Below, piece after piece: positions 3,872 through 55,980 of a stretch of DNA of 64,000 nt (position 1 is the first letter of the stretch; every line of letters starts with the position of its first letter). Location of the stretch: contig JAQTUQ010000007.1 of assembly GCA_028707255.1 (NCBI GenBank), positions 209-64,208 on the forward strand, in the 5' to 3' direction. This stretch comes from Dehalococcoidales bacterium. GTDB taxonomy: Bacteria > Chloroflexota > Dehalococcoidia > Dehalococcoidales > UBA5627. The notes under the pieces were generated by a model. The model saw only the letters and a program-made list of their open reading frames with translations. It searched no databases and was not told where the DNA came from. The position numbers and the translations under genes were made by a program.

Positions 3872-4182
3872 CCATTACGAGAAGTCCCTCTACAATGTCT
3901 TTCTGAGCGCAGCGAAGAATCTCATATAAATTAAAAGGGACGAACGATTAAGCAATCCCTACCGGTTATTTTAACACTGCCATGCGGTCTATTTGGGAAA
4001 GGATTGCTTCGTCCGCCTGCAGCTCCCTCGCAAAGACATTCTGTAAATAAAGGCTGGAAGAGGCACTCCGCGATTCTCTCACTTTGAAAAAGGGAGATTA
4101 AGAGGGATTTTACAGTTTACCGGAATCGATAGAGCAATCAGCAGCAAATCTCCCTCACTCCCTCTTTTCCAAAGAGGGAAAG
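3872..4182. repeat. composite cluster of palindromic repeat modules
   Basis: 3881-4038 is the reverse complement of 25766-25923 (158 nt, high identity by eye). Also contains the hairpin CCCTCTTTtccaAAGAGGG. Confidence 0.8.
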
Positions 4183-7541: not shown

Positions 7542-7613
7542 GGCAGCGTAGCTCAGAGGTAGAGCAGGGGACTCATAAGCCCTTGGTCACTGGTTCAATT
7601 CCAGTCGCTGCTA
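7542..7613 (+). tRNA. tRNA with CAU anticodon (elongator Met or lysidine-dependent Ile2); CCA not encoded
   Basis: Hand-folded cloverleaf. Acceptor GGCAGCG/CGCTGCT (G1-U72), D arm GCTC-AGAGGTA-GAGC, anticodon loop CTCATAA, T arm ACTGG-TTCAATT-CCAGT, discriminator A. Confidence 0.85.
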
Positions 7614-7695
7614 CTTTTTTATTCCTCTCAGAAACCGTGTCCTCAAATAACCAAAGAACTCTGACTGATTAATAACAGAATAAATATTTATGTAA

Positions 7696-8028
7696 TTAAG
7701 GTAAATTACAGAAAGCCAGTATCACCAATACTAACCACACAGCTGCAAAAAACATCGGGACAATATAAGTATGGTCAGCGTTGCTCTTATCTACTGTTCC
7801 TTTGGGATGCCAAAATAAGTTCCACATACTACCAAACATTTTCAATATCAAGAATAGAATATTACCCATGTCCATTTGTTCTTTTTCAATATCATATATT
7901 TTTTTATAGGGTGGTTTATCTCCAGCTTCAAGCGGTAGAGCTAATTCTTTTTCTTCCAAGGTACTGATATATAATTTGATCTTACAGATTATCCCAGTAT
8001 TTAGATAGTTTGTTGCAGCAAAAAGCAT
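7696..8028 (-). CDS. hypothetical membrane protein (possibly the 3' part of a frameshifted gene)
   Basis: 110-aa ORF in an AT-rich region. Its frame stays open upstream to 8175 and reads a TM-like segment HYIGIYWGYTIAGFVLS. Confidence 0.4.
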   Translation of the reverse strand: MLFAATNYLNTGIICKIKLYISTLEEKELALPLEAGDKPPYKKIYDIEKEQMDMGNILFLILKMFGSMWNLFWHPKGTVDKSNADHTYIVPMFFAAVWLVLVILAFCNLP

Positions 8029-8219
8029 AGATAAAACGAATCCTGCAATTGTATAGCCCCAATATATACCAATATAGTGCCCATTCCGGTTATCAGAGCC
8101 CCAAAAGCGGCAAGTAGGAAAGCTGTTGCCACAAGAAAAAAGTTTAACCTTTGAAATAGAAGTTTTACATTTCGATCAAGAAGGTCAATTGCTTTTTCAT
8201 AAGCCGTTTCATATTTCAC
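8001..8219 (-). CDS. hypothetical membrane protein (possibly the 5' part of a frameshifted gene)
   Basis: 72-aa ORF that overlaps 7696..8028 by 28 nt in another frame. Confidence 0.4.
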   Translation of the reverse strand: MKYETAYEKAIDLLDRNVKLLFQRLNFFLVATAFLLAAFGALITGMGTILVYIGAIQLQDSFYLCFLLQQTI

Positions 8220-8360
8220 TTTAAACCCCCCTTAATGAAGACCTCATATATTAGCGAATTTTACTCCGTGATTTGACCGATATCAATGGTTTTATCCCAA
8301 TAAGTACATAAACTATGCTATAATTTCCTACAAATTCCTTTCATTGGAGGAATAACTGTT

Positions 8361-9026
8361 ATGACAGCAGATGAATTCCTGAATATATTCTCAGCAGTTC
8401 TCGAACACGATACAGGTGCCTTAAAATGGGGCAATCCTGAACCGTGGATTCACGCTGAACTTTTTGCAGAATTCAATAGGCAATCTAATAAGACTCACTT
8501 AATACCCTTTGATAGCGAAGTTCCTTATGTCACACGTTTCCCTGTTTTGCCTCGTAAAGAAAATCACAAACACTGGAAGTATGCCGACCTTTGCCTATTA
8601 TCTGATACTGGAAATGATTGGTTTTGGTTTGAATTTAAAGTACGTCCAGTGGGGACTCCAAATAGAGATATCATAGCTTCTAAAGGAGCGAGAGATCAAT
8701 TTCGTAAAGACATAATAGCTTTACTAGGTTTCGAAGCCCAAGGCACAGCTGAACTTTGGGAAAATGAGCTAAATGTAAAATCTTACTGGACAGATAAATA
8801 CCTAAAACCACTTAAAGATAATGTTGGTAGTGGAATACATCATTTTTATTCAATTTTTTTGCAAATAGGCGGGGAACTTAATAAACAAATATGGGACATT
8901 GACGCATTAAAAAAGGAACTCAGTAACTGGTGTATTACACGAGGTGGATATGGTGATGAAACCCAGTGTATTAATTTATATAATGTAAATTTAGACGGTT
9001 ACTGTTTGGTTCTGGCTTATTGGTAA
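8361..9026 (+). CDS. hypothetical protein, possible PD-(D/E)xK nuclease fold
   Basis: 221 aa with RBS GGAGGA upstream. HAELFAEF ... YADLCLL ... WFWFEFKV gives an E / D / ExK arrangement. Confidence 0.6.
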   Translation: MTADEFLNIFSAVLEHDTGALKWGNPEPWIHAELFAEFNRQSNKTHLIPFDSEVPYVTRFPVLPRKENHKHWKYADLCLLSDTGNDWFWFEFKVRPVGTPNRDIIASKGARDQFRKDIIALLGFEAQGTAELWENELNVKSYWTDKYLKPLKDNVGSGIHHFYSIFLQIGGELNKQIWDIDALKKELSNWCITRGGYGDETQCINLYNVNLDGYCLVLAYW

Positions 9027-9075
9027 TTTTTATATTTAGACAGATAATATTTGAGGCTGTAACTCATTATATCAC

Positions 9076-9114
9076 GGGCACCAGTTCAATCCCAGTCGCT
9101 GCTACTTTTTTATT
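9076..9114 (+). repeat. tRNA 3'-end copy 1 (att-like)
   Basis: GTTCAATCCCAGTCGCTGCTACTTTTTTATT differs from tRNA 7592-7622 by 1 mismatch over 31 nt. Confidence 0.85.
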
Positions 9115-9550
9115 ATTTATTAGAACGTATCAATACGACCGGGATTTTTGAATTGCGTACTACTCGTTCCGCAACACTACCAATAAACCAATGTGCCGGC
9201 CCTGTACGTCCATGAGTTGACATGGCAATTACGTCGACTTTATTTTGTTCTGCCATTTTGAGAATTACATTTGCTGCAGATCCTTCTGCCAGTATTGCTG
9301 AAACCTTAAACCCCTCAGACTTCAACTGGGATTCTATTTCAAACATATATTTTTTACCGGCGGCTTCCTCCTCTGCAATCGTTTCTGCGGCAATACCGGG
9401 ATCTGAAAAAGCGAACTCCACAGCAGGATTAGCGACGACGTTTAATATGATTATCTCTGCTCCTTCAGAATATGCCAATGCTTTGGCATGAGGTAATACC
9501 TCTTCAGCTGTTTTAGACCCGTCAAGTGGTACCAGTATTTTTTTATACAT
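9113..9550 (-). CDS. universal stress protein (UspA family)
   Basis: 145 aa. MYKKILVPLDGS...STHGRTG...GSVAERVVRNSKIPVVLIR. Confidence 0.85.
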   Translation of the reverse strand: MYKKILVPLDGSKTAEEVLPHAKALAYSEGAEIIILNVVANPAVEFAFSDPGIAAETIAEEEAAGKKYMFEIESQLKSEGFKVSAILAEGSAANVILKMAEQNKVDVIAMSTHGRTGPAHWFIGSVAERVVRNSKIPVVLIRSNK

Positions 9551-9838
9551 AGATTTTCTCCTTTATTATTCTAGTTCATAATCAAAAAATAAATTCAAAT
9601 TAAATCCTGTACTGATCTACTAGTATTATACACCTAAAACATCACTACATTTACATCTTGGCCTTTGATTTTCTTAGGACTATCATCGCACGAAAATCGA
9701 ACAAGAAGAAGAACAGTTCCAATGTCTAAGACAGGCAAGAAATCGGCGTGATATAATAGTTATAATCAATTCTTCATCTTAAGTAGCAGCAATCGCAATA
9801 AAATAACTGGAAATATATCTAAAGGAGCGGTTAAAAGT

Positions 9839-10177
9839 ATGTTCACAAAAAGAATGTTAATATGCGTTGTTACAGGTGCTCTACTTGGAATCGTCTGTAT
9901 CGTGGGTGCACAGTTAAGGTCGGGATTTGAACATGAAGCTTCTTATCTTTTTTCTTTCTGGTTCAACCGTTTACTCCTGGGAATCGTCATCGGACTGGCA
10001 GCGTTTAAGCTTAGTACAATACAGGCAGTCGGGCGTGGAGCGCTTCTGGGTTTACTGGTTTCGTTCGCTTTTTACAGCTCCACCGGTTTTCAAGATGTTA
10101 TCGGATTCATTGCGGGGATAATATACGGCGTTATCATTGAGTACGCAGCGCTGAAGCTGGATAAGAAAACTGCATAA
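9839..10177 (+). CDS. hypothetical membrane protein
   Basis: 112 aa, about 4 TM segments, RBS AAGGAG upstream. Confidence 0.6.
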   Translation: MFTKRMLICVVTGALLGIVCIVGAQLRSGFEHEASYLFSFWFNRLLLGIVIGLAAFKLSTIQAVGRGALLGLLVSFAFYSSTGFQDVIGFIAGIIYGVIIEYAALKLDKKTA

Positions 10178-10322
10178 GGAAATTGCATCATTTTTACGAA
10201 TGGATAAACGGTCTTTTTAACAATTACTTCCAATATTTTAAGGTTGATATTGCCAGTAAATATAACAGAAAAAGGAAAGGAAGCAATTTAAGTCACTGCC
10301 ACTTTTTTCGGGAGGTATACGA

Positions 10323-10532
10323 ATGGAAAATGATGTTTCGATTTCCCTCGAACTGGCAAACAGGTTGTGCCAAGCTTATACAGAACAACATAAAGTCAGA
10401 CTGTTTAGTCAATGCTGGGGTTGTTTGAAATTTTCTAAAAACAACCCAGAAAAAATGTGCTTTTATAATCCTCCAAATAATGATAGCTGCCGATTTGTCA
10501 ACAAGTTATACAAAAGCCAAAAGGGAAAATAG
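10323..10532 (+). CDS. small Cys-containing hypothetical protein
   Basis: 69 aa. RBS GGGAGG 7 nt upstream. Preferred over the overlapping ORF 10183..10428. Confidence 0.45.
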   Translation: MENDVSISLELANRLCQAYTEQHKVRLFSQCWGCLKFSKNNPEKMCFYNPPNNDSCRFVNKLYKSQKGK

Positions 10533-10540
10533 CTAAGGCT

Positions 10541-10563
10541 TAAATCCAGTCGCTGCTACTTTC
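10541..10563 (+). repeat. tRNA 3'-end copy 2 (att-like)
   Basis: TCCAGTCGCTGCTACTTT is identical to the tRNA over 18 nt. Confidence 0.8.
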
Positions 10564-10638
10564 TATCTCAAATAGACATCGACCCCATAATTTGTTGTAT
10601 AATCTTGTGTATTTATTGGAGTCCTGATAGTAAAAAAT

Positions 10639-11142
10639 ATGCGCGTTATTCTTATCTGTAGCTTAATATTTACCATTTTATTCGGAGCCTTAATGTTATC
10701 GGCTTGCAGCTCGAATGCTGTAGCTAAAGACGGGGATACCGTCCGGGTAGATTACACTTTATCCCTGGCAGATGGCACTGTATATCAGACATCGGTCGGC
10801 AATCAGCCGCTCGAGTTCGTACTCGGAGCAGGCACTATGCTGCCTGAATTCGAAGAAGCCATCGTGGGGATGAAGGCCGGAGAATCCAAAACCATTACAA
10901 TTACGGCGGCGGACGCATACGGAGAATACAGGGAAGACCTTTTAATCACAGTAAAACGAAGCCAGATACAGGGCGGAGAAAATATAGTAGTCGGAGATTA
11001 CCTTACAATGACGGACAGCAGTGGAAGAACCTCTCAGGTTAAAGTTATCGATGTTTCCGATACAAACGTAACAATAGATGCCAATAATCCACTGGCGGGT
11101 AAGAATTTAACTTTTGAAATAGATTTACTAAAGATAATTTAA
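10639..11142 (+). CDS. FKBP-type peptidyl-prolyl cis-trans isomerase, lipoprotein
   Basis: 167 aa. Lipobox LMLSAC. DGDTVRVDYTLSLADGTVYQTS...LEFVLGAGTMLPEFEEAIVGMKAGE. Confidence 0.85.
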   Translation: MRVILICSLIFTILFGALMLSACSSNAVAKDGDTVRVDYTLSLADGTVYQTSVGNQPLEFVLGAGTMLPEFEEAIVGMKAGESKTITITAADAYGEYREDLLITVKRSQIQGGENIVVGDYLTMTDSSGRTSQVKVIDVSDTNVTIDANNPLAGKNLTFEIDLLKII

Positions 11143-11169
11143 ATCCCGGTCGCCGCTACTTTGTTTTTT
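11139..11169 (+). repeat. tRNA 3'-end copy 3 (att-like, divergent)
   Basis: TCCCGGTCGCCGCTACTTT matches the tRNA at 16 of 19 positions, followed by a T-run. Overlaps the FKBP stop codon. Confidence 0.65.
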
Positions 11170-11212
11170 CTGGTCTAATCATAAATAGTTCAAATGTATG
11201 GGGAAATTATAT

Positions 11213-11584
11213 CTATCCGGCAGATACAAACAAACCGGTAATAAAAGGTATTAACCAGATAAGCCAAACGAAAACGCTAAAATGATGGAAATTTACTATA
11301 GCTTTCTCATCCTTGCGTATAATTACAGCAGTTGCCCAAATAGCATGTATAAACATCAACAAAATTGCCAGTATACCCGTTATACCGTGTACATCAAATC
11401 CGATTTGTCCGGCGAATTCAAACATGATGCCTGTTCCGGCAGTATCAAAACATAACCCGCCCCAGAAAAAAAGTAAATGCCAAACCTTTAACCTGCCGGC
11501 AAATCTTTCACTCCAGACTCCTATAGAATATAGCAATAACGCTACAAATATTAATATAGAAGCAATAATAATTTGTTCTGGCAT
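11213..11584 (-). CDS. TIGR03987/HsmA-like small membrane protein
   Basis: 123 aa. YSIGVWSERFAGRLKVWHLLFFWGGLCFDTAGT...HGITGILAILLMFIHAIWA resembles that family from memory. Confidence 0.65.
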   Translation of the reverse strand: MPEQIIIASILIFVALLLYSIGVWSERFAGRLKVWHLLFFWGGLCFDTAGTGIMFEFAGQIGFDVHGITGILAILLMFIHAIWATAVIIRKDEKAIVNFHHFSVFVWLIWLIPFITGLFVSAG

Positions 11585-11719
11585 AACTTAATCCTTTTTA
11601 TATATACTCCTCGCGACCTTATGAGTCTGGTAATTAAGTTCGGTTAATTAGATCTTCTACTCATTTAAAGATTCTTTTTGTTCCAATAATATTTCAGAAG
11701 CTTCCTGGTAAGGCAAACC

Positions 11720-12625
11720 TCACGGCTTCGTTTTGCCGGCAGTATAGCATTTCATCGAGCTTCCTTCTATAATTTTCATCTTATTCAGGGCTGAAGGACC
11801 ATATTTTAATGTGTCGTAAACCATTATAGGCATGAAAGACCAAACCGGTTTCTCCAGATTTCCCGTATAAAAGGACAGGTCATCAGCCATATTGATTTCG
11901 AAAGTTTGATACGCTTTCTTTTTCAAATAATCGGTAGAACAAAGAGGATTACACCATTCGCAGGGAGTGGTCGCAATATAGCCAGCGCAATAAAAGGGAC
12001 GCACTTCATAAATAGAGCACACCCCTTCACGCAAGAACGGGCAGTATAGTTTTTCTTTCACGATTAAAATACGATTTTCGAGCTTAATCTGCCACTTCCC
12101 GGCAAGAGATGCGCTCAATAAATAGTTACAGCGATACTGTGATTCTTTTTTACCTGATGTATTATATGCAGACACGTTTTTATATCTTGATTGTTCCCTG
12201 AGAAGATTATCAACTTCTCTTAACTTTGATATCCAGACCGGATATATATCGATGAAGTAATTAAAGAGTTCTTCATTTTGATACAGGTAATGGACGATTA
12301 ATTCAATCTCCTGTATCGTAGCCCCAACCATTAATATGCAGCAGTAATTACAGCCGCTTGCGCAAGTAATGGCGCTGGATGTGGAAGAAGCAATTTCATT
12401 TTGTTTTCTGGACAATTCTGCAAAGATTTCCTGTTTCTTTAGCATATAACCAGTACAAAGATTCTTTCTCAGAATGCCAGTCTGCCCTGTGTAGGCGATA
12501 TCCCGATTAAGTTTAAAAAGTCCAATCTCGTCACCAAGCATATTAATGGAAGATGTACTGCAACAAAATTTATACCTCTTCCCGCTACCACACGGGCAAG
12601 GACTGTTTCTTCCGATTTTTTCCAT
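11720..12625 (-). CDS. YkgJ-type cysteine-cluster (CxxCxxCC) protein with N-terminal SEC-C motif
   Basis: 301 aa. SPCPCGSGKRYKFCC, then CASGCNYCC and CPFLREGVCSIYEVRPFYC. Confidence 0.7.
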   Translation of the reverse strand: MEKIGRNSPCPCGSGKRYKFCCSTSSINMLGDEIGLFKLNRDIAYTGQTGILRKNLCTGYMLKKQEIFAELSRKQNEIASSTSSAITCASGCNYCCILMVGATIQEIELIVHYLYQNEELFNYFIDIYPVWISKLREVDNLLREQSRYKNVSAYNTSGKKESQYRCNYLLSASLAGKWQIKLENRILIVKEKLYCPFLREGVCSIYEVRPFYCAGYIATTPCEWCNPLCSTDYLKKKAYQTFEINMADDLSFYTGNLEKPVWSFMPIMVYDTLKYGPSALNKMKIIEGSSMKCYTAGKTKP

Positions 12626-12797
12626 TCAATCACCCCAGGTTATTTTACCAACATTTGTTAAGGCTTTCTACCTTGATTTAATCCAGACAACATGCTAACC
12701 GCCAGCCTAATAATTTTGTTGCCTTATTTTTAACTTCAATTGTGAATTATGCTACTATAATATATAGTTCAATATACAATTGAAGGAGGCTTGTAAT

Positions 12798-13139
12798 ATG
12801 GACAGCCGCATAAAATACCTTGAAGAAATAGAAACGCTTGTAGAGGAGTTCAAAAGCGAACAGCCGGAAGCATATGCCGCCAGAGATAACTTCAACGATA
12901 TGATATATCAGGACGGCGCACTGAGTAACAAAATAAAGCGTTTGATGGCTATGTCTATTGCCGTACGAATAGAATGTATCGGTTGTATTATTTATCAAAC
13001 CAAACTTGCGGTAGAGGCCGGTGCTACCAAAAGAGAAGTAGTCGAAGCCGCATCTGTTGCCAGTGCTATGGGTGGTACCAGTGCTTCCTCCAATTTTCCG
13101 ATTGTTGTTCAAACAATGAAAGACCTTGGTAAGTGGTAA
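12798..13139 (+). CDS. carboxymuconolactone decarboxylase (AhpD-like) family protein
   Basis: Start chosen at the ATG after RBS GAAGGAGG. ...KRLMAMSIAVRIECIGCIIYQTKLAVEAGATKREVVEA has a CxxC in the AhpD-like position. Confidence 0.8.
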   Translation: MDSRIKYLEEIETLVEEFKSEQPEAYAARDNFNDMIYQDGALSNKIKRLMAMSIAVRIECIGCIIYQTKLAVEAGATKREVVEAASVASAMGGTSASSNFPIVVQTMKDLGKW

Positions 13140-19729: not shown

Positions 19730-20446
19730 ATGGCACAATTTCTCGACACAACTGGCGTCTCTTTTTATTTAAGTCAGCTCATTAATAATTCTAATGAAAA
19801 GTTGATATTAATAAGTCCCTATTTAAAAATTGGAGACCGTCTTAAACAATCCATTGAAGATAAAGACCGTATGAAGATAGATATTAGATTAATATATGGG
19901 AAAAACGAACTTGAGTTGGCAGAACACAACTGGCTTAAGACATTGAAAACTATCAGAACAAGCTTTTGCCAGAATTTACATGCAAAATGCTATCTAAATG
20001 AAAAAGAAGCGATAATAACTTCAATGAATTTATATGACTATTCACAAACCAATAATAATGAAATGGGTATCTACATTAACAAAGAAAATGATTCAGATTT
20101 ATATGATAATATTTATAAAGAGGCTATGAGATTAGTACGTATAAGTGACGAATATAAAGTATCTGTAACACAGGTGCCAAAAATTGAAAGGAACGAAAAA
20201 ATCGCTAAAGCTCACTCAACAGGTTCTGGTTTTTGTATAAGATGTAACGACAATATCGAACTTAAGCCTAAAAGTCCATATTGCTCAAAATGCTTTAGTT
20301 CTTGGAAAAAATTTGGGAATAATGATTATGAAGAGAAATATTGCCATATTTGTGGGGAGTCAAATAAATCTACAATTATGAAACCAACTTGTTATAACTG
20401 TTATAAAAGCAATAAAGATAAATTGGATTTCCCGCTACAAAAGTAG
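19730..20446 (+). CDS. PLD-family (HKD) nuclease-like protein with two C-terminal zinc ribbons
   Basis: 238 aa in an AT-rich gene. LHAKCYLNEKEAIITSMNL is an HxK...SxN motif. Followed by CIRCN..CSKC and CHICG..CYNC. Confidence 0.75.
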   Translation: MAQFLDTTGVSFYLSQLINNSNEKLILISPYLKIGDRLKQSIEDKDRMKIDIRLIYGKNELELAEHNWLKTLKTIRTSFCQNLHAKCYLNEKEAIITSMNLYDYSQTNNNEMGIYINKENDSDLYDNIYKEAMRLVRISDEYKVSVTQVPKIERNEKIAKAHSTGSGFCIRCNDNIELKPKSPYCSKCFSSWKKFGNNDYEEKYCHICGESNKSTIMKPTCYNCYKSNKDKLDFPLQK

Positions 20447-25759: not shown

Positions 25760-26045
25760 TAAAAATGTCTTTGCGAGGATGCCACAGGCGGACGAAGCAA
25801 TCTCTCCCGAATAGACCACACGGCAATATTAAAATAATCTGTAGAGATTGCTTAATCGTTCGTCCCTCCCTGATTTGTATGAGATTCTTCGCTGCGCTCA
25901 GAAAGACATTGTAGAGGGACTCCATGCAATGGCAGTGTGTAATTTGTCATTCTGGAGTCCATAAGGGATGGCCGAAGAATCCTGGAGGCGGGGAGAAGCA
26001 GCACAAAGGTATCTACAGCATAAACCTTCTCCGCCAGTCCTCTCA
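25760..26045. repeat. composite cluster of palindromic repeat modules
   Basis: 25766-25923 is the reverse complement of 3881-4038. Further partial modules extend to about 26040. Confidence 0.8.
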
Positions 26046-33339: not shown

Positions 33340-33544
33340 CTTGCAAAATCCCTCTTATTCTCCCTTTGATAAAGGGAGAGAACCGCTGAGTGGTATTTCC
33401 TACCCCGCGAGCCCCGACAGGTCGGGGCGAAGCAATCTTTCTCGAATAGACCGCATGCAGTATTAAAATATCCGGTAGAGATTGCCGAGTGGTTCGACAG
33501 GCTTCCTTCGAGAACCTCAGGACAGGCTCCACGAACGGCTTTTA
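33340..33544. repeat. composite cluster of palindromic repeat modules
   Basis: Contains GGCGAAGCAATCTTTCTCGAATAGACC...GGTAGAGATTGCC plus TTCGACAGGCT / CTCAGGACAGGCTCCACGAACGG modules. Confidence 0.75.
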
Positions 33545-34096: not shown

Positions 34097-34216
34097 TGTC
34101 ATTGCGAATCCCACTTGTCGGGATGAAGCAATCTTTCTCGAATAGACTGTATGGTAGAATTAAAAATATCGGTAGAGATTGCCGCGCTTTCCCTTCGGGA
34201 AAACTCGCAATGACTG
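34097..34216. repeat. module A unit (about 120-nt rod-like palindrome)
   Basis: TGTCATTGCGA...GAAGCAATCTTTC...GGTAGAGATTGCC...TCGCAATGAC. Reverse complement of 40771-40889. Confidence 0.85.
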
Positions 34217-36450: not shown

Positions 36451-36636
36451 CTAGCTCTTTTCTTCCACCGTTCTGGGCTGCCAACTGGGAGAGCCGCACT
36501 TGGGACAGATCTTGGGCTTGGGCGTTCCCTCGGGAACCAACTGCCGCCAGATAAAACGGCAATGAATGCACCTGTAAGTGAACCACTTCTTTTCTTCCAT
36601 ATGAATCATTATAGGCTCTATTGGGGGGGATGTCAC
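36451..36636 (-). CDS. small zinc-ribbon protein
   Basis: 61 aa. CIHC...CPKCG. The start codon is uncertain. Confidence 0.5.
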   Translation of the reverse strand: MTSPPIEPIMIHMEEKKWFTYRCIHCRFIWRQLVPEGTPKPKICPKCGSPSWQPRTVEEKS

Positions 36637-36671
36637 TATGGGGGGAATAAAATTATCAACTAAAAATGTTT

Positions 36672-39662
36672 TTATCGTTTACCTCTAGATATAGGTTTTA
36701 TATACTTGCATCTTGGATACTTTGGGTAGCTGGAGCATCCTAAAAATCTACTACCTTTGGGATTCCGACGAACAACTAAAAATCCATGATGATGGCAACC
36801 TTTGCCATCCATTCCAGGACAAAGTTCTTGTGTTTGGACACCTATAGCATCTTCTTTTAATATTTCAAGGCTTGTAATTAACTCTTCAATTGTTGAGTTT
36901 CCTACAAATCTTCTCATCTGTTCGCCAGTATCACGATGACTGAGGATATTTAGGCTACCTTCCCAAGCAATGTCATTATCAATAATGGCTACTTTCTGAT
37001 GCATATTACGTTTTTCAATAACGTTAACGCCAATACTACGGCATTGATTCAATACAACATTTGATTGATTTGCCATCTCCCCAATTTGCTGACTTATTGG
37101 CCTTGTATATATCTTGATGTCAACATTTCTATCAACCATAGCCTTGAATAAATCCATAAACTTGGCTGAACGGTTTATAGATATAAAGGGGCTGAGTATG
37201 AAAAGACGTTGTTTTACAATTTTAATGTCTTTTATGAACTGCTCCCAAAAATTATGCTCAGTATATAATTCTCCTGATATTGGTTCATCTATCGTATCTT
37301 TACTGCTAAGCAACGCATCTGCCCATTTTTCAAAATCAGCAGTAAAATAATTATCCACCAAACACTCTGATTTAATACATTCTGCCTTTTGCTGTAAATA
37401 ATTAATTATTCGTGATAATAAGGCTTTATTACCAAGATCATCAAATAATTTTTTAGTATTGGCTACACAATAGAATTTGTCTTTAGCTCTAGTAAATGCA
37501 ACATTTAACAACTTTAATGTATCTGAATCAGGGCTTGCATCATTCAACATAGGAGCCGTTTTTAAACCTATTCCTTCAGTAGTATCAAATATTATTATTT
37601 GTTTTTCTCCCCCTTGAAAAGTATGGATATTATTTACTGCTAGCCTATTAGATAGTTGCCAATCTTTAACAATTTTATTAATTAATCGTGCTTGTGCTCT
37701 ATAAGGAGTAATTATCCCAATTTTATGATCAGACTCCTTTTGGATGATATTCCTTGCAAGCGTAGCACAAACTAATGCATTATAGAGATTAAACCTTCCG
37801 CCAGAAGAAAGTTGACTACACCAAGCATTCATATTTTCTGTTTCAATTAAAACCAATGGAGACACAGAAATGCCATCATCCAAAGCCAATCTGGTAGTAG
37901 AAGAATCGTTTTTTAGGACGCCCTGATAAATGAAACGATTTGAAATCTCGGAGATGGCAGGAACCATACGATATTGCGTATCCAATAGCATTACTCTTTC
38001 ATCATTCTGAGCCTTTGTTATCGTTGTAAGTTCCAATACATCGAAGATACTTCTAGCAAGCCATTTTTGTGCCATCGATTGCTCTGAGATACAAATAGGG
38101 GGCAATTGTAAAAAATCACCTACTATGACGATAGAATTACAACTTAATCCAGCAGCCCAATATAAATGAGGAAGTGGAGCCATACTGGCTTCATCTAAAA
38201 TTAAAACATCGAATTTTCTATTAGGAAGTTGTTTATCCGTACAGGTCTTTGTTAGGGTAGTGGCAACTAATTTTGCTTCTATGATAATGTTCTTTTGTAT
38301 ATCTTCCAACTCTTTTTTAATTTCAGCTATTCTAGATAGAATTACCTCTTTACGTGTCTCTTGTTTACTTTTCCTTTCCCTTAACTCTGTGAGTGTTATT
38401 GTATTCCCATAAGCAGAATTGTTTGCTTTTATTCTTGCTTCATTCAATTCAACTTGTTTTGCCTGAGATGTACCTTTAAGCTCTTTAGTTAATTCCATAT
38501 TGGATTCAAGAGTTCGGGCTATTGAATCGCGGCGAACACTTGTTTTATCAATCAAACGTTGAACATTATCAGGATAAAGACCGGTCAAAAATCGCCTGAA
38601 AGTACCATAAGATTGAGCCACTAATAACATTCTTTTATTTCTTGCTTGTATGTCATCAATTGATAACAATTCTTTTTTTATTGTCTCAACTTTGTTTAAA
38701 GCTTGAGATAAAGAGGTCTTAATGCTGTTGAGTTCACCAACCAAAGTCTCAACTTTTTTCACAGCAATAAATAAATTATCAATATCAAGTAAGATTTTTT
38801 CTACCTGTGCTTTTTCATATTCCAAAGAATGATTCTCTTTACTAAGTGCATCTCCCAATTTCTCCACTATCCTGTCAAGAAGAACCATAGGATAATTACC
38901 CTCCATATTTTTTAAATGTTCTTCTTGCGGTTTCCCCAATCTAACTAATTTACCCTCCTGATAAAACAATGAACTTTTTAAATGAGCAGCTATGTCTTTA
39001 AGTGCTTCATCAACAGCATTATTTGCATGCGAAACAAGTAATATACTTCTGCCTGCATTTAGGTGCGCTTCCACAATCCTTGCAATAGTTTTTGTTTTAC
39101 CTGTTCCCGGCGGTCCCCAAATTATCGAAAGTTTTGAGGAAAAAGCAGCTTTTATAGCATTTTTCTGAGCATCATTAGGCGGTTCTGCACTAAGTGTATA
39201 GTTTATTTCCTTCTGTTTTGAAGAATATTCTCCTGATAATTTCCCAAGGAAGAGGGCTTCACTCAAATTAAAATCTGAATTTTTTGTGGAATTACTTTTT
39301 TCTTCTAACTTTTTCTTAAGTGCTTCCAATAGATACCATAGATTAGTATAAAGCGTAGCTTCGGATATAAAACTACCAGAAAATCCTTCTATACCAATTT
39401 CAACTTCTAATCCCTGTGTCAATAATATTTGCGCACGATATTTAAACCCATTAATCTCTATTTCAGCAGGGGAATCATCCAACGTGGTAAGAAAGTTTTC
39501 TAAATTAAAAACATACACACTAAGCCCTGATATATTACGTAACAACCTACCATTAAATACTTTAACAATACTACCACCCTTACTTCTGCCTTTAGGATTT
39601 TTAAGAGCATCAATTTCTTCATCCAATGCTCGAATCAATTCACCAGCTAACTGTGATGCCAT
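36672..39662 (-). CDS. SF1 (Upf1/DNA2-like) helicase fused to a PLD-family nuclease and a topoisomerase-type C4 zinc finger; Mokosh type II-like
   Basis: 996 aa in an AT-rich gene. GPPGTGKT, VLILDEASM, IVGDFLQLPP, LDTQYRM, IITPYRAQ, TFQGGEKQIIIFD, NVAFTRAK, then HQKVAIIDNDIAWEGSLNILSH, then C..GC....GCSSYP..C. Confidence 0.85.
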   Translation of the reverse strand: MASQLAGELIRALDEEIDALKNPKGRSKGGSIVKVFNGRLLRNISGLSVYVFNLENFLTTLDDSPAEIEINGFKYRAQILLTQGLEVEIGIEGFSGSFISEATLYTNLWYLLEALKKKLEEKSNSTKNSDFNLSEALFLGKLSGEYSSKQKEINYTLSAEPPNDAQKNAIKAAFSSKLSIIWGPPGTGKTKTIARIVEAHLNAGRSILLVSHANNAVDEALKDIAAHLKSSLFYQEGKLVRLGKPQEEHLKNMEGNYPMVLLDRIVEKLGDALSKENHSLEYEKAQVEKILLDIDNLFIAVKKVETLVGELNSIKTSLSQALNKVETIKKELLSIDDIQARNKRMLLVAQSYGTFRRFLTGLYPDNVQRLIDKTSVRRDSIARTLESNMELTKELKGTSQAKQVELNEARIKANNSAYGNTITLTELRERKSKQETRKEVILSRIAEIKKELEDIQKNIIIEAKLVATTLTKTCTDKQLPNRKFDVLILDEASMAPLPHLYWAAGLSCNSIVIVGDFLQLPPICISEQSMAQKWLARSIFDVLELTTITKAQNDERVMLLDTQYRMVPAISEISNRFIYQGVLKNDSSTTRLALDDGISVSPLVLIETENMNAWCSQLSSGGRFNLYNALVCATLARNIIQKESDHKIGIITPYRAQARLINKIVKDWQLSNRLAVNNIHTFQGGEKQIIIFDTTEGIGLKTAPMLNDASPDSDTLKLLNVAFTRAKDKFYCVANTKKLFDDLGNKALLSRIINYLQQKAECIKSECLVDNYFTADFEKWADALLSSKDTIDEPISGELYTEHNFWEQFIKDIKIVKQRLFILSPFISINRSAKFMDLFKAMVDRNVDIKIYTRPISQQIGEMANQSNVVLNQCRSIGVNVIEKRNMHQKVAIIDNDIAWEGSLNILSHRDTGEQMRRFVGNSTIEELITSLEILKEDAIGVQTQELCPGMDGKGCHHHGFLVVRRNPKGSRFLGCSSYPKYPRCKYIKPISRGKR

Positions 39663-39757
39663 ATTTACCTCTTAACCATTATTTGTTATGTTATATCCTA
39701 TATGAACTGTAAACAAAATATTGGAGCTTGCAATTATATTTCTTTTGAAAATCCCCA

Positions 39758-40431: not shown

Positions 40432-40677
40432 CTAAATAAAACCGCCGCCCGTAGCCAATCTGACAATACCGTAAACTATGAGAATAGCATTGATTACGAT
40501 ACCGGCTGTACCGATTCCTTTATTTTTCCCCCTGCTAACACCGACGATACACAGTATCAGTCCCAGCCCGGCAACCGGAATATTTAACCAGTTAAGCCAT
40601 CCCAGAAACGGAACGACGGATACCGTAGCCCCGATACCGGTAAGAATGCCGATTATAAAACCGACTATACTCATCAA
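40432..40677 (-). CDS. small membrane protein
   Basis: 81 aa, 3 TM segments. Confidence 0.5.
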   Translation of the reverse strand: MMSIVGFIIGILTGIGATVSVVPFLGWLNWLNIPVAGLGLILCIVGVSRGKNKGIGTAGIVINAILIVYGIVRLATGGGFI

Positions 40678-40770: not shown

Positions 40771-40889
40771 TGTCATTGCGAGTTTTCCCGAAGGGAAGGC
40801 GCGGCAATCTCTACCGATTGTTTTAATGACGCCATACAGTCTATTCGGTAAAGATTGCTTCATCCGCCTGCGGCGTCTTCGCAATGACA
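40771..40889. repeat. module A unit, inverted relative to 34097-34216
   Basis: TGTCATTGCGAGTTTTCCCGAAGGGAAGGCGCGGCAATCTCTACCGAT...AAGATTGCTTCATCC...CGCAATGACA. Confidence 0.85.
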
Positions 40890-53789: not shown

Positions 53790-54195
53790 AATTCTTCGCT
53801 ACACTCAAGATGACGATTCCCTCTTAGCGTCATTCCGAGTCCCCCGATTTATCGGGGCGAAGCAATCACTACAAAACCTCTTAATTACCCCACCCCGCCA
53901 CCCAAAATGTCGTTGCGAGGACGCCGCAGGCGGACGAAGCAATCTTTACCGAATAGACCGTATGGCAGTATTAAAATAACCGGTAGAGATTGCCGCGTCG
54001 CTCGTTTAACACTCGCTCCTCGCAAAGACAGTGCAGAGAGTCCCGCCACAACTGTCATTCTGAGGCGAAGCCGAAGAATCCAAGACTTATCGAATGGTAT
54101 TTAGTCCCTTCACTTCGTTCAGGGTGACAGTAAAAAAACCGCTTATCTTTGAGCCCGTCGAAGGGTCTGCGAGCGGAGAGGGGTTGCGGCGAGTT
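53790..54195. repeat. composite repeat array (modules B-half, C, A, B, tail)
   Basis: The module A unit at 53908-54030 has a 14-bp outer stem TGTCGTTGCGAGGA/TCCTCGCAAAGACA. Collinear with 55500-55975. Confidence 0.85.
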
Positions 54196-55289: not shown

Positions 55290-55980
55290 AACCCCGCTTT
55301 TTTAGACCTCATCCCCCAGCCTCCCTCTCCGCAAGCATCCTTCGACAAGCTCAGGATGCGCGGATATTGTTAGAGCCGTTCGTGGATAAGGTTAGTAAAA
55401 AGCCGTTCGTGGAGCCTGTCCTGAGGTTCTCGAAGGAAGCCTGTCGAACCATAACGGCGGCGAATTTTAAACCGGATTTCCGTTAAAATCCTTCGACGCA
55501 CTCAGGACGAACGGAAATCTTTACCGAATAGACCGTATGGCGTAGTTATAGTTATCGGTAGAGATTGCCGCGTCGCTCGCTTAACGCTCACTCCTCGCAA
55601 AGACAGAGCAGAGAGACCCTCTACATTGTCATTCTGAGGCGCAGCCGAAGAATCCAGGAATTATCGAATGGCATTCAGTTCCTTCACTTCGTTCAGGATG
55701 ACAATTCCTTTTTAGCATCATTGCGAGTCCCCGATTTGTCGGGATGAAGAAATCCCTGCAATGCAACATAATTACCCCGCCCCGCCACCCAAACTGTCTT
55801 TGCGAGGACGCTGCAGGCGGACGAAGCAATCTTTACCGAATAGACCGTATGGCGTAATTATAGTTATCGCTAGAGATTGCCGCGTCGCTTCGCTCCTCGC
55901 AAAGACAGTTTGGAGATACATCTGAGCCTGTCGAAGGGTCTGCAATCGGAGAAGGGGGCTGGGGGTGAGGTGTAAAAAGC
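55290..55980. repeat. composite repeat array (modules A, B, C, A, tail, inside a split palindrome)
   Basis: Module A units at about 55500-55610 and 55795-55910, module B at 55625-55702. Same orientation as 53790-54195. Confidence 0.85.

What the first reader, a model, noticed from the sequence alone, without database searches (positions are those of the whole stretch)
36672..39662. AT-rich single-gene islet: SF1 helicase + PLD nuclease + topoisomerase-type zinc finger (Mokosh type II-like with extra modules)
The 996-aa protein has an N-terminal region of about 160 aa with no motif I recognise. It then shows a full Upf1/DNA2-like motif set (GPPGTGKT ... VLILDEASM ... GDFLQLPP ... QYRM ... ITPYRAQ ... 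TFQGGEKQIIIFD ... NVAFTRAK), split by a coiled-coil insertion of about 200 aa. A canonical HKD nuclease motif follows (HQKVAIIDNDIAWEGSLNILSH), then a C4 finger of the topoisomerase type (C..GC....GCSSYP..C). A helicase of this class fused to a PLD nuclease defines the type II Mokosh anti-phage system. The zinc finger, coiled coil and N-terminal domain are not part of that description as I recall it. In sampled lines the gene is roughly one-third G+C, against about half or more in the flanking genes. The compositional break coincides with the gene borders (about 36.64-39.74 kb), indicating horizontal acquisition.
Basis: partly seen in the sequence, partly recalled or inferred. Interest (0 to 1): 0.7.

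Follow-up and report, generated by a model that had tools for sequence, protein, structure and literature searches.

The report
Mokosh-like helicase–nuclease defence gene islet
A single AT-rich gene, foreign in composition to its Dehalococcoidia-like host genome, encodes a 996-residue helicase fused to a nuclease and a zinc finger; it is an untested, widespread cousin of the known one-protein anti-phage system Mokosh type II, so it is interesting but not a new kind of thing.

Summary
Window 36672-39662 (-) is one intact 996-aa ORF. All SF1B/Upf1-like helicase motifs are present. So is a canonical single HxK(x)4D(x)6GSxN PLD motif and a C-terminal four-cysteine Top1-type zinc ribbon. GC is 0.343 and GC3 is 0.243, the lowest GC3 of 52 ORFs (z = -3.5), and the break falls at the gene borders.

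It is a distant relative of Mokosh. PADLOC gives MkoA 7e-53 and MkoC 2e-46. Against MkoC it scores only 156 bits over 39% of the profile, whereas canonical MkoC scores about 1380 bits full-length. Profile-profile alignment is collinear only from helicase motif II through the PLD domain.

The "extra modules" are partly ordinary:
- The N-terminal domain models as helix, six-strand barrel, helix, like the 1B/stalk of Upf1-like helicases.
- The roughly 200-aa helical insertion sits where canonical MkoC and CoCoNuT CnuH also carry large insertions.
- The zinc ribbon is a real addition.

The architecture defines a large clade (more than 120 full-length homologues, several phyla). It has no conserved partner gene, sometimes lies in defence islands, and is absent from phages.

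Best reading: a stand-alone helicase-nuclease defence protein and a new variant of a known kind. Function is untested.

The parts
36672..39662 (-). Complete CDS, 996 aa (112 kDa): the single-protein helicase-nuclease
   Evidence: ORF list. It is full-length alignable to more than 120 homologues at 47-90% identity. dN/dS is 0.17 against the 90% orthologue in L002.
39663..39757 (-). AT-rich upstream intergenic region. It holds the AAGAGG ribosome-binding site (39668-39673) and a weak sigma-70-like match (39706-39678).
   Evidence: Sequence and promoter scan. The promoter match is no better than shuffled expectation.
39288..39662 (-). N-terminal domain (residues 1-125): helix, six-strand beta-barrel, helix. 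It is proposed to be the 1B barrel plus stalk of Upf1-like helicases.
   Evidence: There is no Pfam hit. The AF2 model built on 112 sequences has pLDDT about 90 over residues 30-125. Foldseek gives weak matches to IGHMBP2, Upf1, Dna2 and ZNFX1 (TM 0.36-0.42, E 2e-3 to 1.6e-2), alongside generic barrels. In all 10 wider relatives scanned with Pfam, the domain sits in front of a Upf1-like helicase.
38877..39176 (-). RecA-like domain 1A, first part (residues 163-262), with Walker A GPPGTGKT (nt 39093-39116) and motif Ia
   Evidence: Pfam AAA_11, AAA_30 and AAA_19. Motif positions. Residues are invariant in the alignment.
38277..38876 (-). Helical, coiled-coil-like insertion of about 200 aa (residues 263-462) between motifs Ia and II, at the 1C/'prong' position
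   Evidence: The AF2 model shows helices 271-351, 364-417 and 424-462 at pLDDT 80-90. The segment is rich in L, E, K and I and has a single proline. Its length is conserved while its sequence varies. It is absent in some relatives and longer in others.
37383..38276 (-). Remainder of domain 1A plus domain 2A (residues 463-760), with motifs II (DEAS), III, IV, V and VI
   Evidence: Pfam AAA_11 and AAA_12. PDB phmmer hits to Senataxin, Upf1, DNA2 and IGHMBP2 at E about 1e-20. Foldseek.
36858..37262 (-). PLD-family nuclease domain (residues 801-935) with a single HKD motif, HQKVAIIDNDIAWEGSLN (nt 36948-37001)
   Evidence: Pfam PLDc_2 at 30 bits. Foldseek matches mouse Zucchini/PLD6 at E = 4e-6. 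The motif residues are invariant. The domain aligns with the PLD domain of canonical MkoC.
36708..36821 (-). C-terminal four-cysteine zinc ribbon of the topoisomerase-I type (C948, C956, C976, C985)
   Evidence: Pfam Zn_ribbon_Top1 at E = 6e-6, below the gathering score. The same family is on record in homologues and scores 36-51 bits in wider relatives. The cysteines are conserved.
36640..39740 (.). Compositional islet: GC about 0.34 against about 0.44-0.55 in the flanks
   Evidence: No flanking direct or inverted repeats mark the borders.

Best explanation
**What it is.** The gene encodes a stand-alone, single-protein nucleic-acid-targeting immune factor of the Mokosh type II kind. An ancestor of this Dehalococcoidia-like lineage acquired it horizontally, and it has been kept under purifying selection.

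**Shown here.**
- An intact Upf1-like SF1B ATPase/helicase core.
- An intact single-HKD PLD nuclease domain.
- A four-cysteine Top1-type zinc ribbon.
- No conserved partner gene.

**Inferred mechanism.**
1. The helicase loads on single-stranded nucleic acid of an invader and translocates 5'->3' using ATP. The substrate would be ssDNA replication intermediates or RNA/RNA-DNA hybrids.
2. The N-terminal 1B-like barrel and the C-terminal zinc ribbon help to hold the strand.
3. Each polypeptide carries only one HKD motif. PLD-family nucleases such as Nuc and Zucchini build one active site from two HKD motifs. Cutting therefore needs two PLD domains to pair.
4. Cleavage is thus licensed by dimerisation of two protomers on the substrate. 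The roughly 12-nm helical arm at the 1C/'prong' position is the likeliest mediator or regulator.
5. The strand is then cut, without a metal cofactor, through a phosphohistidine intermediate.
For: **Domains and motifs.**

**Relation to Mokosh.**
- PADLOC gives MkoA 7.4e-53 and MkoC 2.2e-46.
- hhalign against canonical MkoC gives 99.3% probability, E = 1.3e-20. The alignment is collinear from motif II through the linker and the PLD domain.
- BLASTP against E. coli YjhR gives 2e-9.
- The preprint that defines Mokosh II requires one gene with a COG1112 helicase N-terminal to a PLD nuclease. Walker A and PLD mutants abolished defence there (10.1101/2022.05.11.491447).

**Fold.** Matches are to Senataxin, IGHMBP2, Upf1 and Dna2, plus Zucchini.

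**Genomic context.**
- There is no conserved neighbour across 8 loci.
- Two loci lie in clear defence islands. L007 has DISARM-like genes, GmrSD and TIR. L085 has SAVED-HNH, a type I R-M system and Mrr.
- One locus lies beside toxin-antitoxin genes and an IS200-type transposase gene.

**Signs of horizontal transfer.**
- The gene is more AT-rich than its host in all 8 loci, by 3-13 points.
- Identity is 47-65% between members named as Chloroflexota/Dehalococcoidia, Syntrophales/Syntrophobacteraceae and Peptococcaceae/Desulfallas.

**Other points.**
- dN/dS is 0.17.
- The family is absent from phage genomes and viral contigs.
- E. coli Mokosh II is monomeric at rest and protected only against an ssDNA phage (10.1101/2025.07.10.664194). 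This fits dimerisation-gated cutting of single-stranded substrates.
Against: - No experiment exists for this clade.
- It fails a full-length match to the MkoC profile. It covers 39% of the profile at 156 bits, against about 1380 bits for canonical members. Residues 1-481 do not align to MkoC.
- In this window, and in 3 other loci, the gene sits among housekeeping genes rather than in a defence island.
- Substrate, polarity, dimerisation and the role of the helical arm are all inferences.
- Several branches of the wider family have lost the HxK catalytic residues. Nuclease activity is therefore not essential to every member.
- The 1B assignment of the N-terminal domain rests on weak structural matches.
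Confidence: 0.7

Rival explanations
1. It is a housekeeping DNA repair or replication helicase-nuclease, analogous to Dna2, that processes host ssDNA flaps or ends.
For: - The helicase core matches Dna2 as well as it matches Upf1.
- In the window and in L006, L008 and L087 the gene lies among housekeeping genes. In L087 it follows UDG and endonuclease V genes.
- It is conserved in synteny and under purifying selection between two close genomes.
Against: - GC3 is 0.24 against a host value of 0.52.
- No NCBIfam family is reached at its cutoff.
- Neighbours differ in every lineage.
- Relatives that share the CDGSH synteny (L092) or the CDGSH gene (L093, L094) do not have it beside that gene.
- Defence-island contexts occur in L007 and L085.
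- High identity is shared across phyla.
Confidence: 0.07
2. It is an RNA-surveillance or RNA-processing enzyme, a Upf1-like RNA helicase with a Zucchini-like ribonuclease. It would act on host or invader transcripts rather than on DNA.
For: - The closest solved helicases are RNA helicases: Senataxin, Upf1 and IGHMBP2.
- The PLD domain matches Zucchini/PLD6, a single-strand-specific nuclease of the piRNA pathway.
- Related CnuH helicases are predicted to target RNA (PMC11090510).
Against: - Top1-type zinc ribbons are best known as ssDNA binders in topoisomerase I (established knowledge).
- E. coli Mokosh II protected only against an ssDNA phage.
- Upf1-like helicases and Zucchini act on both ssDNA and RNA in vitro, so sequence cannot decide.
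- If the target is invader RNA, this is a sub-variant of the best explanation rather than a true alternative.
Confidence: 0.12
3. It is a selfish or addiction-type cargo gene of a decayed mobile element. Its product would act in inter-element conflict, for example against plasmids, or as a toxin, and would give the host no benefit against phage.
For: - It forms an AT-rich islet.
- It lies next to an IS200-type transposase gene and toxin-antitoxin genes in L086.
- A PIN/antitoxin pair is inserted next to it in L002.
- Canonical MkoC genes occur on conjugative plasmids beside IS elements.
Against: - There is no integrase, transposase, att-like repeat or terminal inverted repeat at the islet borders.
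- The gene persists intact with dN/dS 0.17.
- It is absent from phage and viral collections.
Confidence: 0.08

Closest known systems
Mokosh type II (MkoC; E. coli YjhR family)
   Same: - It is one polypeptide, with a Upf1-like SF1 helicase N-terminal to a single-HKD PLD nuclease.
- A large insertion lies between Walker A and motif II.
- It is a stand-alone gene.
- Homology is collinear from motif II to the end of the PLD domain (hhalign 99.3%; BLASTP 1e-12).
   Different: - Identity is only 22-24%.
- It scores 156 bits on the MkoC profile, against 1373-1387 bits for canonical members, and covers only 39% of the profile.
- The N-terminal half (residues 1-481) is not alignable.
- It is shorter, 996 aa against about 1165 aa.
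- It has a C-terminal Top1-type zinc ribbon that canonical MkoC lacks.
- Its helicase scores higher on MkoA models than canonical MkoC does (178 against 106-112 bits).
Mokosh type I (MkoA helicase + MkoB PLD)
   Same: The best-scoring PADLOC model for the helicase part is MkoA (7.4e-53, residues 163-759). The same two activities are present.
   Different: Here the activities are fused in one gene. There is no serine/threonine kinase domain and no adjacent MkoB-like gene.
CoCoNuT CnuH/CnuE helicase-effector modules (PMC11090510)
   Same: Both have a Upf1-like helicase with an OB/barrel-on-stalk element, a large helical, coiled-coil insertion after Walker A, zinc ribbons, and nuclease effectors that are swapped or fused (HEPN, Vsr, PLD).
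   Different: There are no McrB/McrC-like (CnuB/CnuC) genes, no wHTH CnuE and no TerY-P genes nearby. The gene is solitary.
Eukaryotic Upf1-like helicases with Zucchini/PLD6 (MOV10L1-PLD6 of the piRNA pathway)
   Same: The helicase and PLD folds match. This pairing has been noted for Mokosh (10.1101/2022.12.12.520048).
   Different: In eukaryotes the two are separate proteins, with different accessory domains, in a membrane-anchored context. The link is structural resemblance only.

Membership tests
Mokosh type II (MkoC) | A single gene encoding a COG1112/Upf1-like SF1 helicase N-terminal to a PLD-family nuclease (definition in 10.1101/2022.05.11.491447) | tested here: met
   Pfam AAA_11 and AAA_12 cover residues 163-736, followed by PLDc_2 at 811-906. 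Fold matches are Upf1-like helicases and Zucchini.
Mokosh type II (MkoC) | Intact ATP-binding (Walker A/B) and PLD HKD catalytic residues; these were the residues whose mutation abolished defence | tested here: met
   GPPGTGKT at 183-190, DEAS at 490-493, and H888/K890/D895 followed by GSLN at 902-905. All are invariant across 17 homologues.
Mokosh type II (MkoC) | Full-length match to the MkoC family profile (PADLOC PDLC03924), as canonical members give | tested here: not met
   The window protein scores 156.5 bits, and its best stretch covers profile positions 668-1108 of 1136. Canonical proteins from the Pseudomonas and Arsenophonus plasmids score 1373-1387 bits over positions 1-1135. hhalign aligns only residues 482-933.
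Mokosh type II (MkoC) | Functions alone, with no obligatory partner gene | tested here: met
   No neighbour is shared among 8 loci, apart from the close relative L002.
Mokosh type II (MkoC) | Confers resistance to phage | not testable with these tools
   This needs heterologous expression and phage challenge.
Mokosh type II (MkoC) | Called as Mokosh by DefenseFinder or PADLOC rule sets | not tested
   Only the HMM library was available, not the system rules or their coverage thresholds. The best model per protein is MkoA rather than MkoC, so a call is uncertain.
Mokosh type I (MkoA/MkoB) | Helicase (often with an STK domain) and PLD nuclease encoded as two adjacent genes | tested here: not met
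   Both activities are in one ORF. There is no kinase domain and no PLD gene nearby.
Upf1-like (SF1B) helicases | Motifs I, Ia and II-VI in two RecA-like domains, with closest similarity to Upf1, IGHMBP2, Sen1 and Dna2 | tested here: met
Upf1-like (SF1B) helicases | Accessory 1B beta-barrel on a helical stalk N-terminal to Walker A, and a 1C insertion between motifs Ia and II | tested here: inconclusive
   The model shows helix, six strands, helix (pLDDT about 90). The matches to IGHMBP2, Upf1, Dna2 and ZNFX1 are weak (TM 0.36-0.42, E >= 2e-3), and generic barrels score alongside them. The insertion is in the right place but is a helical arm of about 200 aa.
PLD-superfamily nucleases (Nuc/Zucchini/BfiI type) | HxK(x)4D(x)6GSxN motif, one copy per chain, with the active site formed by dimerisation | tested here: met
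   The motif is present exactly once, and the fold matches Zucchini. Dimerisation itself cannot be tested with these tools.
CoCoNuT (CnuH-containing type II/III systems) | Conserved association with McrB-like GTPase (CnuB) and McrC-like (CnuC) genes | tested here: not met
   None is present within +/-10 kb in the window, nor in the Pfam-annotated syntenic locus L002.
Housekeeping Dna2/RecD-like repair helicase | Match to a curated equivalog model, and conserved synteny in relatives | tested here: not met
   All NCBIfam hits are far below their cutoffs; RecD2, for example, scores 52 against 500. Synteny holds only in the 90% relative and is lost in L092, L093 and L094.

The most novel reading that the evidence does not exclude
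This is the founding example of a distinct, phylum-spanning clade of single-protein immune helicases. The architecture is a 1B-like barrel, a Upf1-like core with a hypertrophied coiled-coil 'prong', a PLD domain and a Top1-type zinc ribbon. The clade evolved separately from canonical MkoC. Its long helical arm and zinc ribbon would gate a dimerisation-dependent nuclease. Its branches with dead PLD domains would have been repurposed as pure sensors or regulators. On this reading it is a system type of its own, not merely another Mokosh.
Probability: 0.2. Interest if true: 0.6.

Novelty: new variant of a known kind. Interest (0 to 1): 0.4.

Why it matters
The mechanism of Mokosh is still unknown. 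This clade offers a compact, monomer-sized, widely distributed variant with three features that mutation can test directly:
- a helical arm at the prong position,
- a single HKD motif that must pair to cut,
- an ssDNA-type zinc ribbon.

The clade also contains natural "experiments": branches without the insertion, and branches with a dead PLD domain. It extends helicase-PLD immunity to poorly studied anaerobes (Dehalococcoidia, Syntrophales, Peptococcaceae). It also shows that current MkoC models cover only part of the helicase-PLD fusion space, so defence annotation tools may be missing these genes.

Tried and rejected
1. **Full-length MkoC from E. coli.** The K-12 yjhR locus holds only a 338-aa remnant, and IS-disrupted copies exist elsewhere. 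I used full-length plasmid homologues instead.
2. **Genome-contig scan with the family alignment.** The scan returned only distant relatives (<=34% identity) and not the close family or the host genome. It was still useful for breadth.
3. **Empty-site test through the CDGSH neighbour.**
   - L092 keeps about 11 kb of downstream synteny. Its contig ends 327 bp upstream of CDGSH, inside an unrelated membrane-protein gene.
   - L093 and L094 have lost synteny altogether.
   - The helicase is therefore not a conserved neighbour, but no clean empty site was obtained.
4. **Flanking repeats or att sites at the islet borders.** None was convincing.
5. **"19.7-kb PLD paralogue".** It is a PLDc_2 protein but shows no detectable similarity to this PLD domain (BLASTP E = 16). 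A phylogeny would be meaningless.
6. **Phage-borne homologues.** None turned up beyond generic helicase similarity.
7. **NCBIfam and Pfam on the N-terminal domain and the insertion.** There was no family hit.
9. **The PADLOC 'mad2' hit on a neighbour.** It is a generic UbiE-type methyltransferase.
10. **A hand-written IUPAC pattern for the dispersed repeat.** It was mis-spaced and found nothing, so I replaced it with nhmmer.
Full report
**1. Observation**

Window 36672..39662 on the minus strand is a single intact ORF of 996 codons. An AAGAGG ribosome-binding site lies 5 nt upstream of the ATG.

- Walker A GPPGTGKT, 183-190
- Ia LLVSHANNAVDE, 208-219
- II VLILDEASM, 486-494
- III GDFLQLPP, 515-522
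- IV QYRM, 563-566
- V TFQGGEKQIIIFD, 681-693
- VI NVAFTRAK, 720-727
- HQKVAIIDNDIAWEGSLN, 888-905, which is an exact HxK(x)4D(x)6GSxN PLD motif
- four C-terminal cysteines: 948, 956, 976, 985

Pfam finds the following:
- AAA_11, residues 163-527
- AAA_12, residues 547-736
- PLDc_2, residues 811-906, 30 bits against a cutoff of 27
- Zn_ribbon_Top1, residues 961-992, at E = 6e-6 to 9e-5, below the gathering score of 32 bits

The zinc ribbon is still credible. The same family is on record for most homologues and scores 36-51 bits in wider relatives. Four cysteines are conserved across the alignment.

The composition claim also holds:
- Gene GC is 0.343 and GC3 is 0.243. The other 51 ORFs average 0.467 and 0.524, giving z = -2.7 and -3.5.
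- Only 0.6% of windows of equal length are as AT-rich, and all of them overlap this gene.
- The break falls within about 50 bp of the gene ends.

The third-position signal shows that amino-acid composition alone does not explain the low GC.

**2. What it is**

*Helicase and nuclease folds.* By sequence, the helicase core is closest to solved Upf1-like SF1B helicases. These are Senataxin, Upf1, DNA2 and IGHMBP2, all at E about 1e-20. A full-length AF2 model (pLDDT 68.7) gives the same answer by fold, and its PLD domain matches mouse Zucchini/PLD6.

*PADLOC and NCBIfam.* Against PADLOC the best models are MkoA (7.4e-53, residues 163-759) and MkoC (2.2e-46, residues 481-916 on profile positions 668-1108 of 1136). 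No NCBIfam model is reached at its cutoff.

*Direct test against canonical MkoC.* I recovered bona fide full-length MkoC-type proteins, which are homologues of E. coli YjhR. A preprint uses YjhR as a fused Mokosh example. The proteins come from Pseudomonas, Arsenophonus and Vibrio plasmids.
- They score 1373-1387 bits over the whole MkoC profile. The window protein scores 156.
- Profile-profile comparison of the two families gives 99.3% probability (E = 1.3e-20). The alignment is collinear from helicase motif II through domain 2A, the linker and the PLD domain (residues 482-933 against 690-1161). Residues 1-481 do not align.

The protein therefore fits the published operational definition of type II Mokosh: one gene, with a COG1112 helicase followed by a PLD nuclease. 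It is nevertheless a distant, separate branch and not a canonical MkoC.

**3. The "extra modules"**

*N-terminal domain.* Residues 1-160 have no Pfam match, but they are the most conserved part of the family. Modelled on 112 sequences, they form helix 2-21, six beta-strands (32-106) and helix 108-124, with pLDDT about 90 in the core.

Foldseek gives only weak hits. Those covering the most columns (118-165) are IGHMBP2, Upf1, Dna2 and ZNFX1 (TM 0.36-0.42), next to generic ATPase barrels. A barrel flanked by stalk helices in front of Walker A is described as characteristic of the whole UPF1/DNA2-like family, and of prokaryotic CnuH helicases (PMC11090510). I therefore read the N-terminal domain as a 1B-like barrel/stalk, with moderate confidence.

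*Helical insertion.* The insertion of about 200 aa (residues 263-462) models as three long helices forming an out-and-back arm. It lies between motifs Ia and II, the 1C/"prong" position. Canonical MkoC has an even longer spacing at the same place: Walker A is at 287-294 and motif II at 690, a gap of 396 aa against about 300 here. CnuH helicases also carry a large helical, coiled-coil insertion after Walker A. An insertion there is therefore not new in kind.

*Zinc ribbon.* The C-terminal zinc ribbon is absent from canonical MkoC, which ends soon after the PLD domain.

**4. The family**

More than 120 full-length homologues of about 1000 aa, at 47-90% identity, share the whole architecture.

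An exhaustive search with the N-terminal domain alone finds 285 cluster representatives. All 10 representatives scanned with Pfam carry the domain in front of a Upf1-like helicase. Their other features vary:
- the insertion is present, absent or even longer;
- the PLD domain is intact, or has lost its HxK residues;
- most end in a Top1-type zinc ribbon.

Distant full-length relatives (26-34% identity) occur in Planctomycetota, Bacillota, Hydrogenedentota, Actinomycetota (including Streptomyces) and others. Again they carry an HxK..D motif plus the ribbon, or a degenerate PLD domain as in Bacillus. Some close homologues carry an additional CxxC-x17-CxxC ribbon after the N-terminal domain.

**5. 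Context and origin**

*Neighbours in the window.* All are ordinary genes: DUF6512, a 61-aa zinc-ribbon protein, CDGSH, Band_7, DegV, a YgjP-like protein and a UbiE-type methyltransferase. None is a defence gene.

*The close relative.* A genome at 90% identity (L002) has the gene in the same place. Its flanking genes are equally diverged, at 79-95% amino-acid identity. dN/dS is 0.17.

*Other lineages.* The neighbours are unrelated:
- Two loci are clear defence islands. L007 has DISARM-like genes, GmrSD and TIR. L085 has SAVED-HNH, a type I R-M system and Mrr.
- One locus lies by toxin-antitoxin and IS200 genes (L086).
- Three loci are solitary among housekeeping genes.

*Composition and distribution.* In all eight loci the gene is 3-13 GC points below its flanks. 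Members at 47-65% identity are named as Chloroflexota/Dehalococcoidia, Syntrophales/Syntrophobacteraceae and Peptococcaceae/Desulfallas. The family is absent from phage genomes and viral contigs.

*Search for an empty site.* L092 keeps about 11 kb of downstream synteny. Synteny breaks exactly upstream of CDGSH, and the contig ends 327 bp further on inside an unrelated gene. More distant relatives have lost synteny altogether. No border repeats were found.

Horizontal acquisition before the split of the two close genomes is thus well supported, but it has not been shown directly.

**6. Mechanism (shown versus inferred)**

*Shown.*
- Intact ATPase/helicase motifs.
- A PLD catalytic motif present exactly once.
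- A four-cysteine ribbon.
- No partner gene.

*From established knowledge.*
- Upf1-like SF1B helicases translocate 5'->3' on single-stranded RNA or DNA.
- Single-HKD PLD nucleases (Nuc, Zucchini, BfiI) form one active site from two chains and cut through a phosphohistidine intermediate without metal.
- Top1-type zinc ribbons bind ssDNA in topoisomerase I.

*From the literature.*
- Mokosh defence needs both the ATP-binding site and the PLD site.
- E. coli Mokosh II is a monomer in solution and, in one panel, protected only against an ssDNA phage.

*Inferred.* The protein loads on invader single-stranded nucleic acid, held by the barrel and the ribbon. The nuclease fires only when two PLD domains pair on the substrate. 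The helical arm is the likely dimerisation or regulatory element.

*Rivals.* These are a housekeeping Dna2-like role, an RNA-only role, and selfish mobile-element cargo. They are weighed in the Rival explanations section, and none fits the composition, distribution and context as well.

**7. Verdict**

Two corrections apply. Strict MkoC membership fails at the profile level, and only the zinc ribbon is clearly an extra module. This is a new variant of a known kind. It is a large, untested clade and is useful for dissecting how helicase-PLD immunity works, but it is not categorically new. Interest 0.4.

Noticed in passing
window 19730-20446 (+): This is a second AT-rich single-gene islet (GC 0.303, GC3 0.276). 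It encodes a 238-aa stand-alone PLDc_2 protein with a weak DrmC-like PADLOC hit. The motif is HAKCYLNE...TSMN, and two CxxC...CxxC zinc ribbons follow at the C-terminus. It shows no detectable similarity to the PLD domain of the 996-aa protein.
   Followed up: partly
window 3920-4020, 25784-25885, 33424-33505, 34120-34214, 40772-40871, 53926-54007, 55505-55581, 55813-55895: A dispersed intergenic repeat of about 80-100 nt has 8 full copies in 64 kb. Its core is GAAGCAATCT...AGAGATTGC, which folds into a long hairpin (about -30 kcal/mol). It is not in Rfam at gathering scores.

Two copies in inverted orientation (34120-34214 + and 40772-40871 -) share an extra tail hairpin. They bracket the 6.6-kb block of Band_7, CDGSH, the zinc-ribbon gene, the helicase, DUF6512 and an 81-aa ORF at 40432-40677. 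Copies at the same places exist in L002 and L092.
   Followed up: partly
window 7542-13000: tRNA-Met (7542-7614) is followed by a low-GC stretch (GC 0.37-0.39). It contains ORFs without family hits, such as 8361-9026 with GC3 0.27, and a SEC-C/CxxCxxCC protein at 11720-12625. It may be an element integrated at the tRNA.
   Followed up: no
window 36672-39662 versus L002 10001-12982: Synonymous divergence of the helicase gene (dS 0.28) is about half that of four flanking genes (0.54-0.62). This could reflect a later exchange of the gene between the two lineages, or underestimation of dS at AT-biased third positions.
   Followed up: no
L002 8571-9267: The 90% relative carries a 96-aa ORF and a PIN-toxin gene between the homologue of the window's 81-aa ORF (40432-40677) and DUF6512. 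The window lacks both. The spot next to the helicase gene is therefore variable.
   Followed up: no
P0146, P0216, P0228, P0242, P0261; L013, L016, L018, L021, L025: Some branches of the wider family keep the N-terminal domain, the helicase and usually the zinc ribbon, but have lost the HxK catalytic residues of the PLD-like domain. Several also lack the helical insertion. They may be non-nuclease derivatives.
   Followed up: partly
P0043, P0062, P0078, P0086, P0092, P0095 (alignment A1, columns about 170-200): An extra CxxC-x17-CxxC zinc ribbon is inserted between the N-terminal domain and the helicase in some close homologues. It is absent from the window protein.
   Followed up: no
window 36451-36636 (-) and 36608-36636: A 61-aa zinc-ribbon protein (Zn_ribbon_8, below the Pfam cutoff) lies directly downstream of the helicase gene and is conserved at 88.5% in L002. 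The region's best sigma-70-like promoter match (GTGACA-17-TATAAT, 11/12) spans 36636-36608. That places it at the start of the listed ORF and just upstream of an in-frame ATG. Host-type GC resumes here.
   Followed up: no
L006 and L087: In two unrelated-looking contexts a PolyA_pol/CCA-adding enzyme gene lies close downstream of the helicase gene. In L087 it is the next gene; in L006 one 157-aa gene intervenes. This may be a shared insertion site or chance.
   Followed up: no
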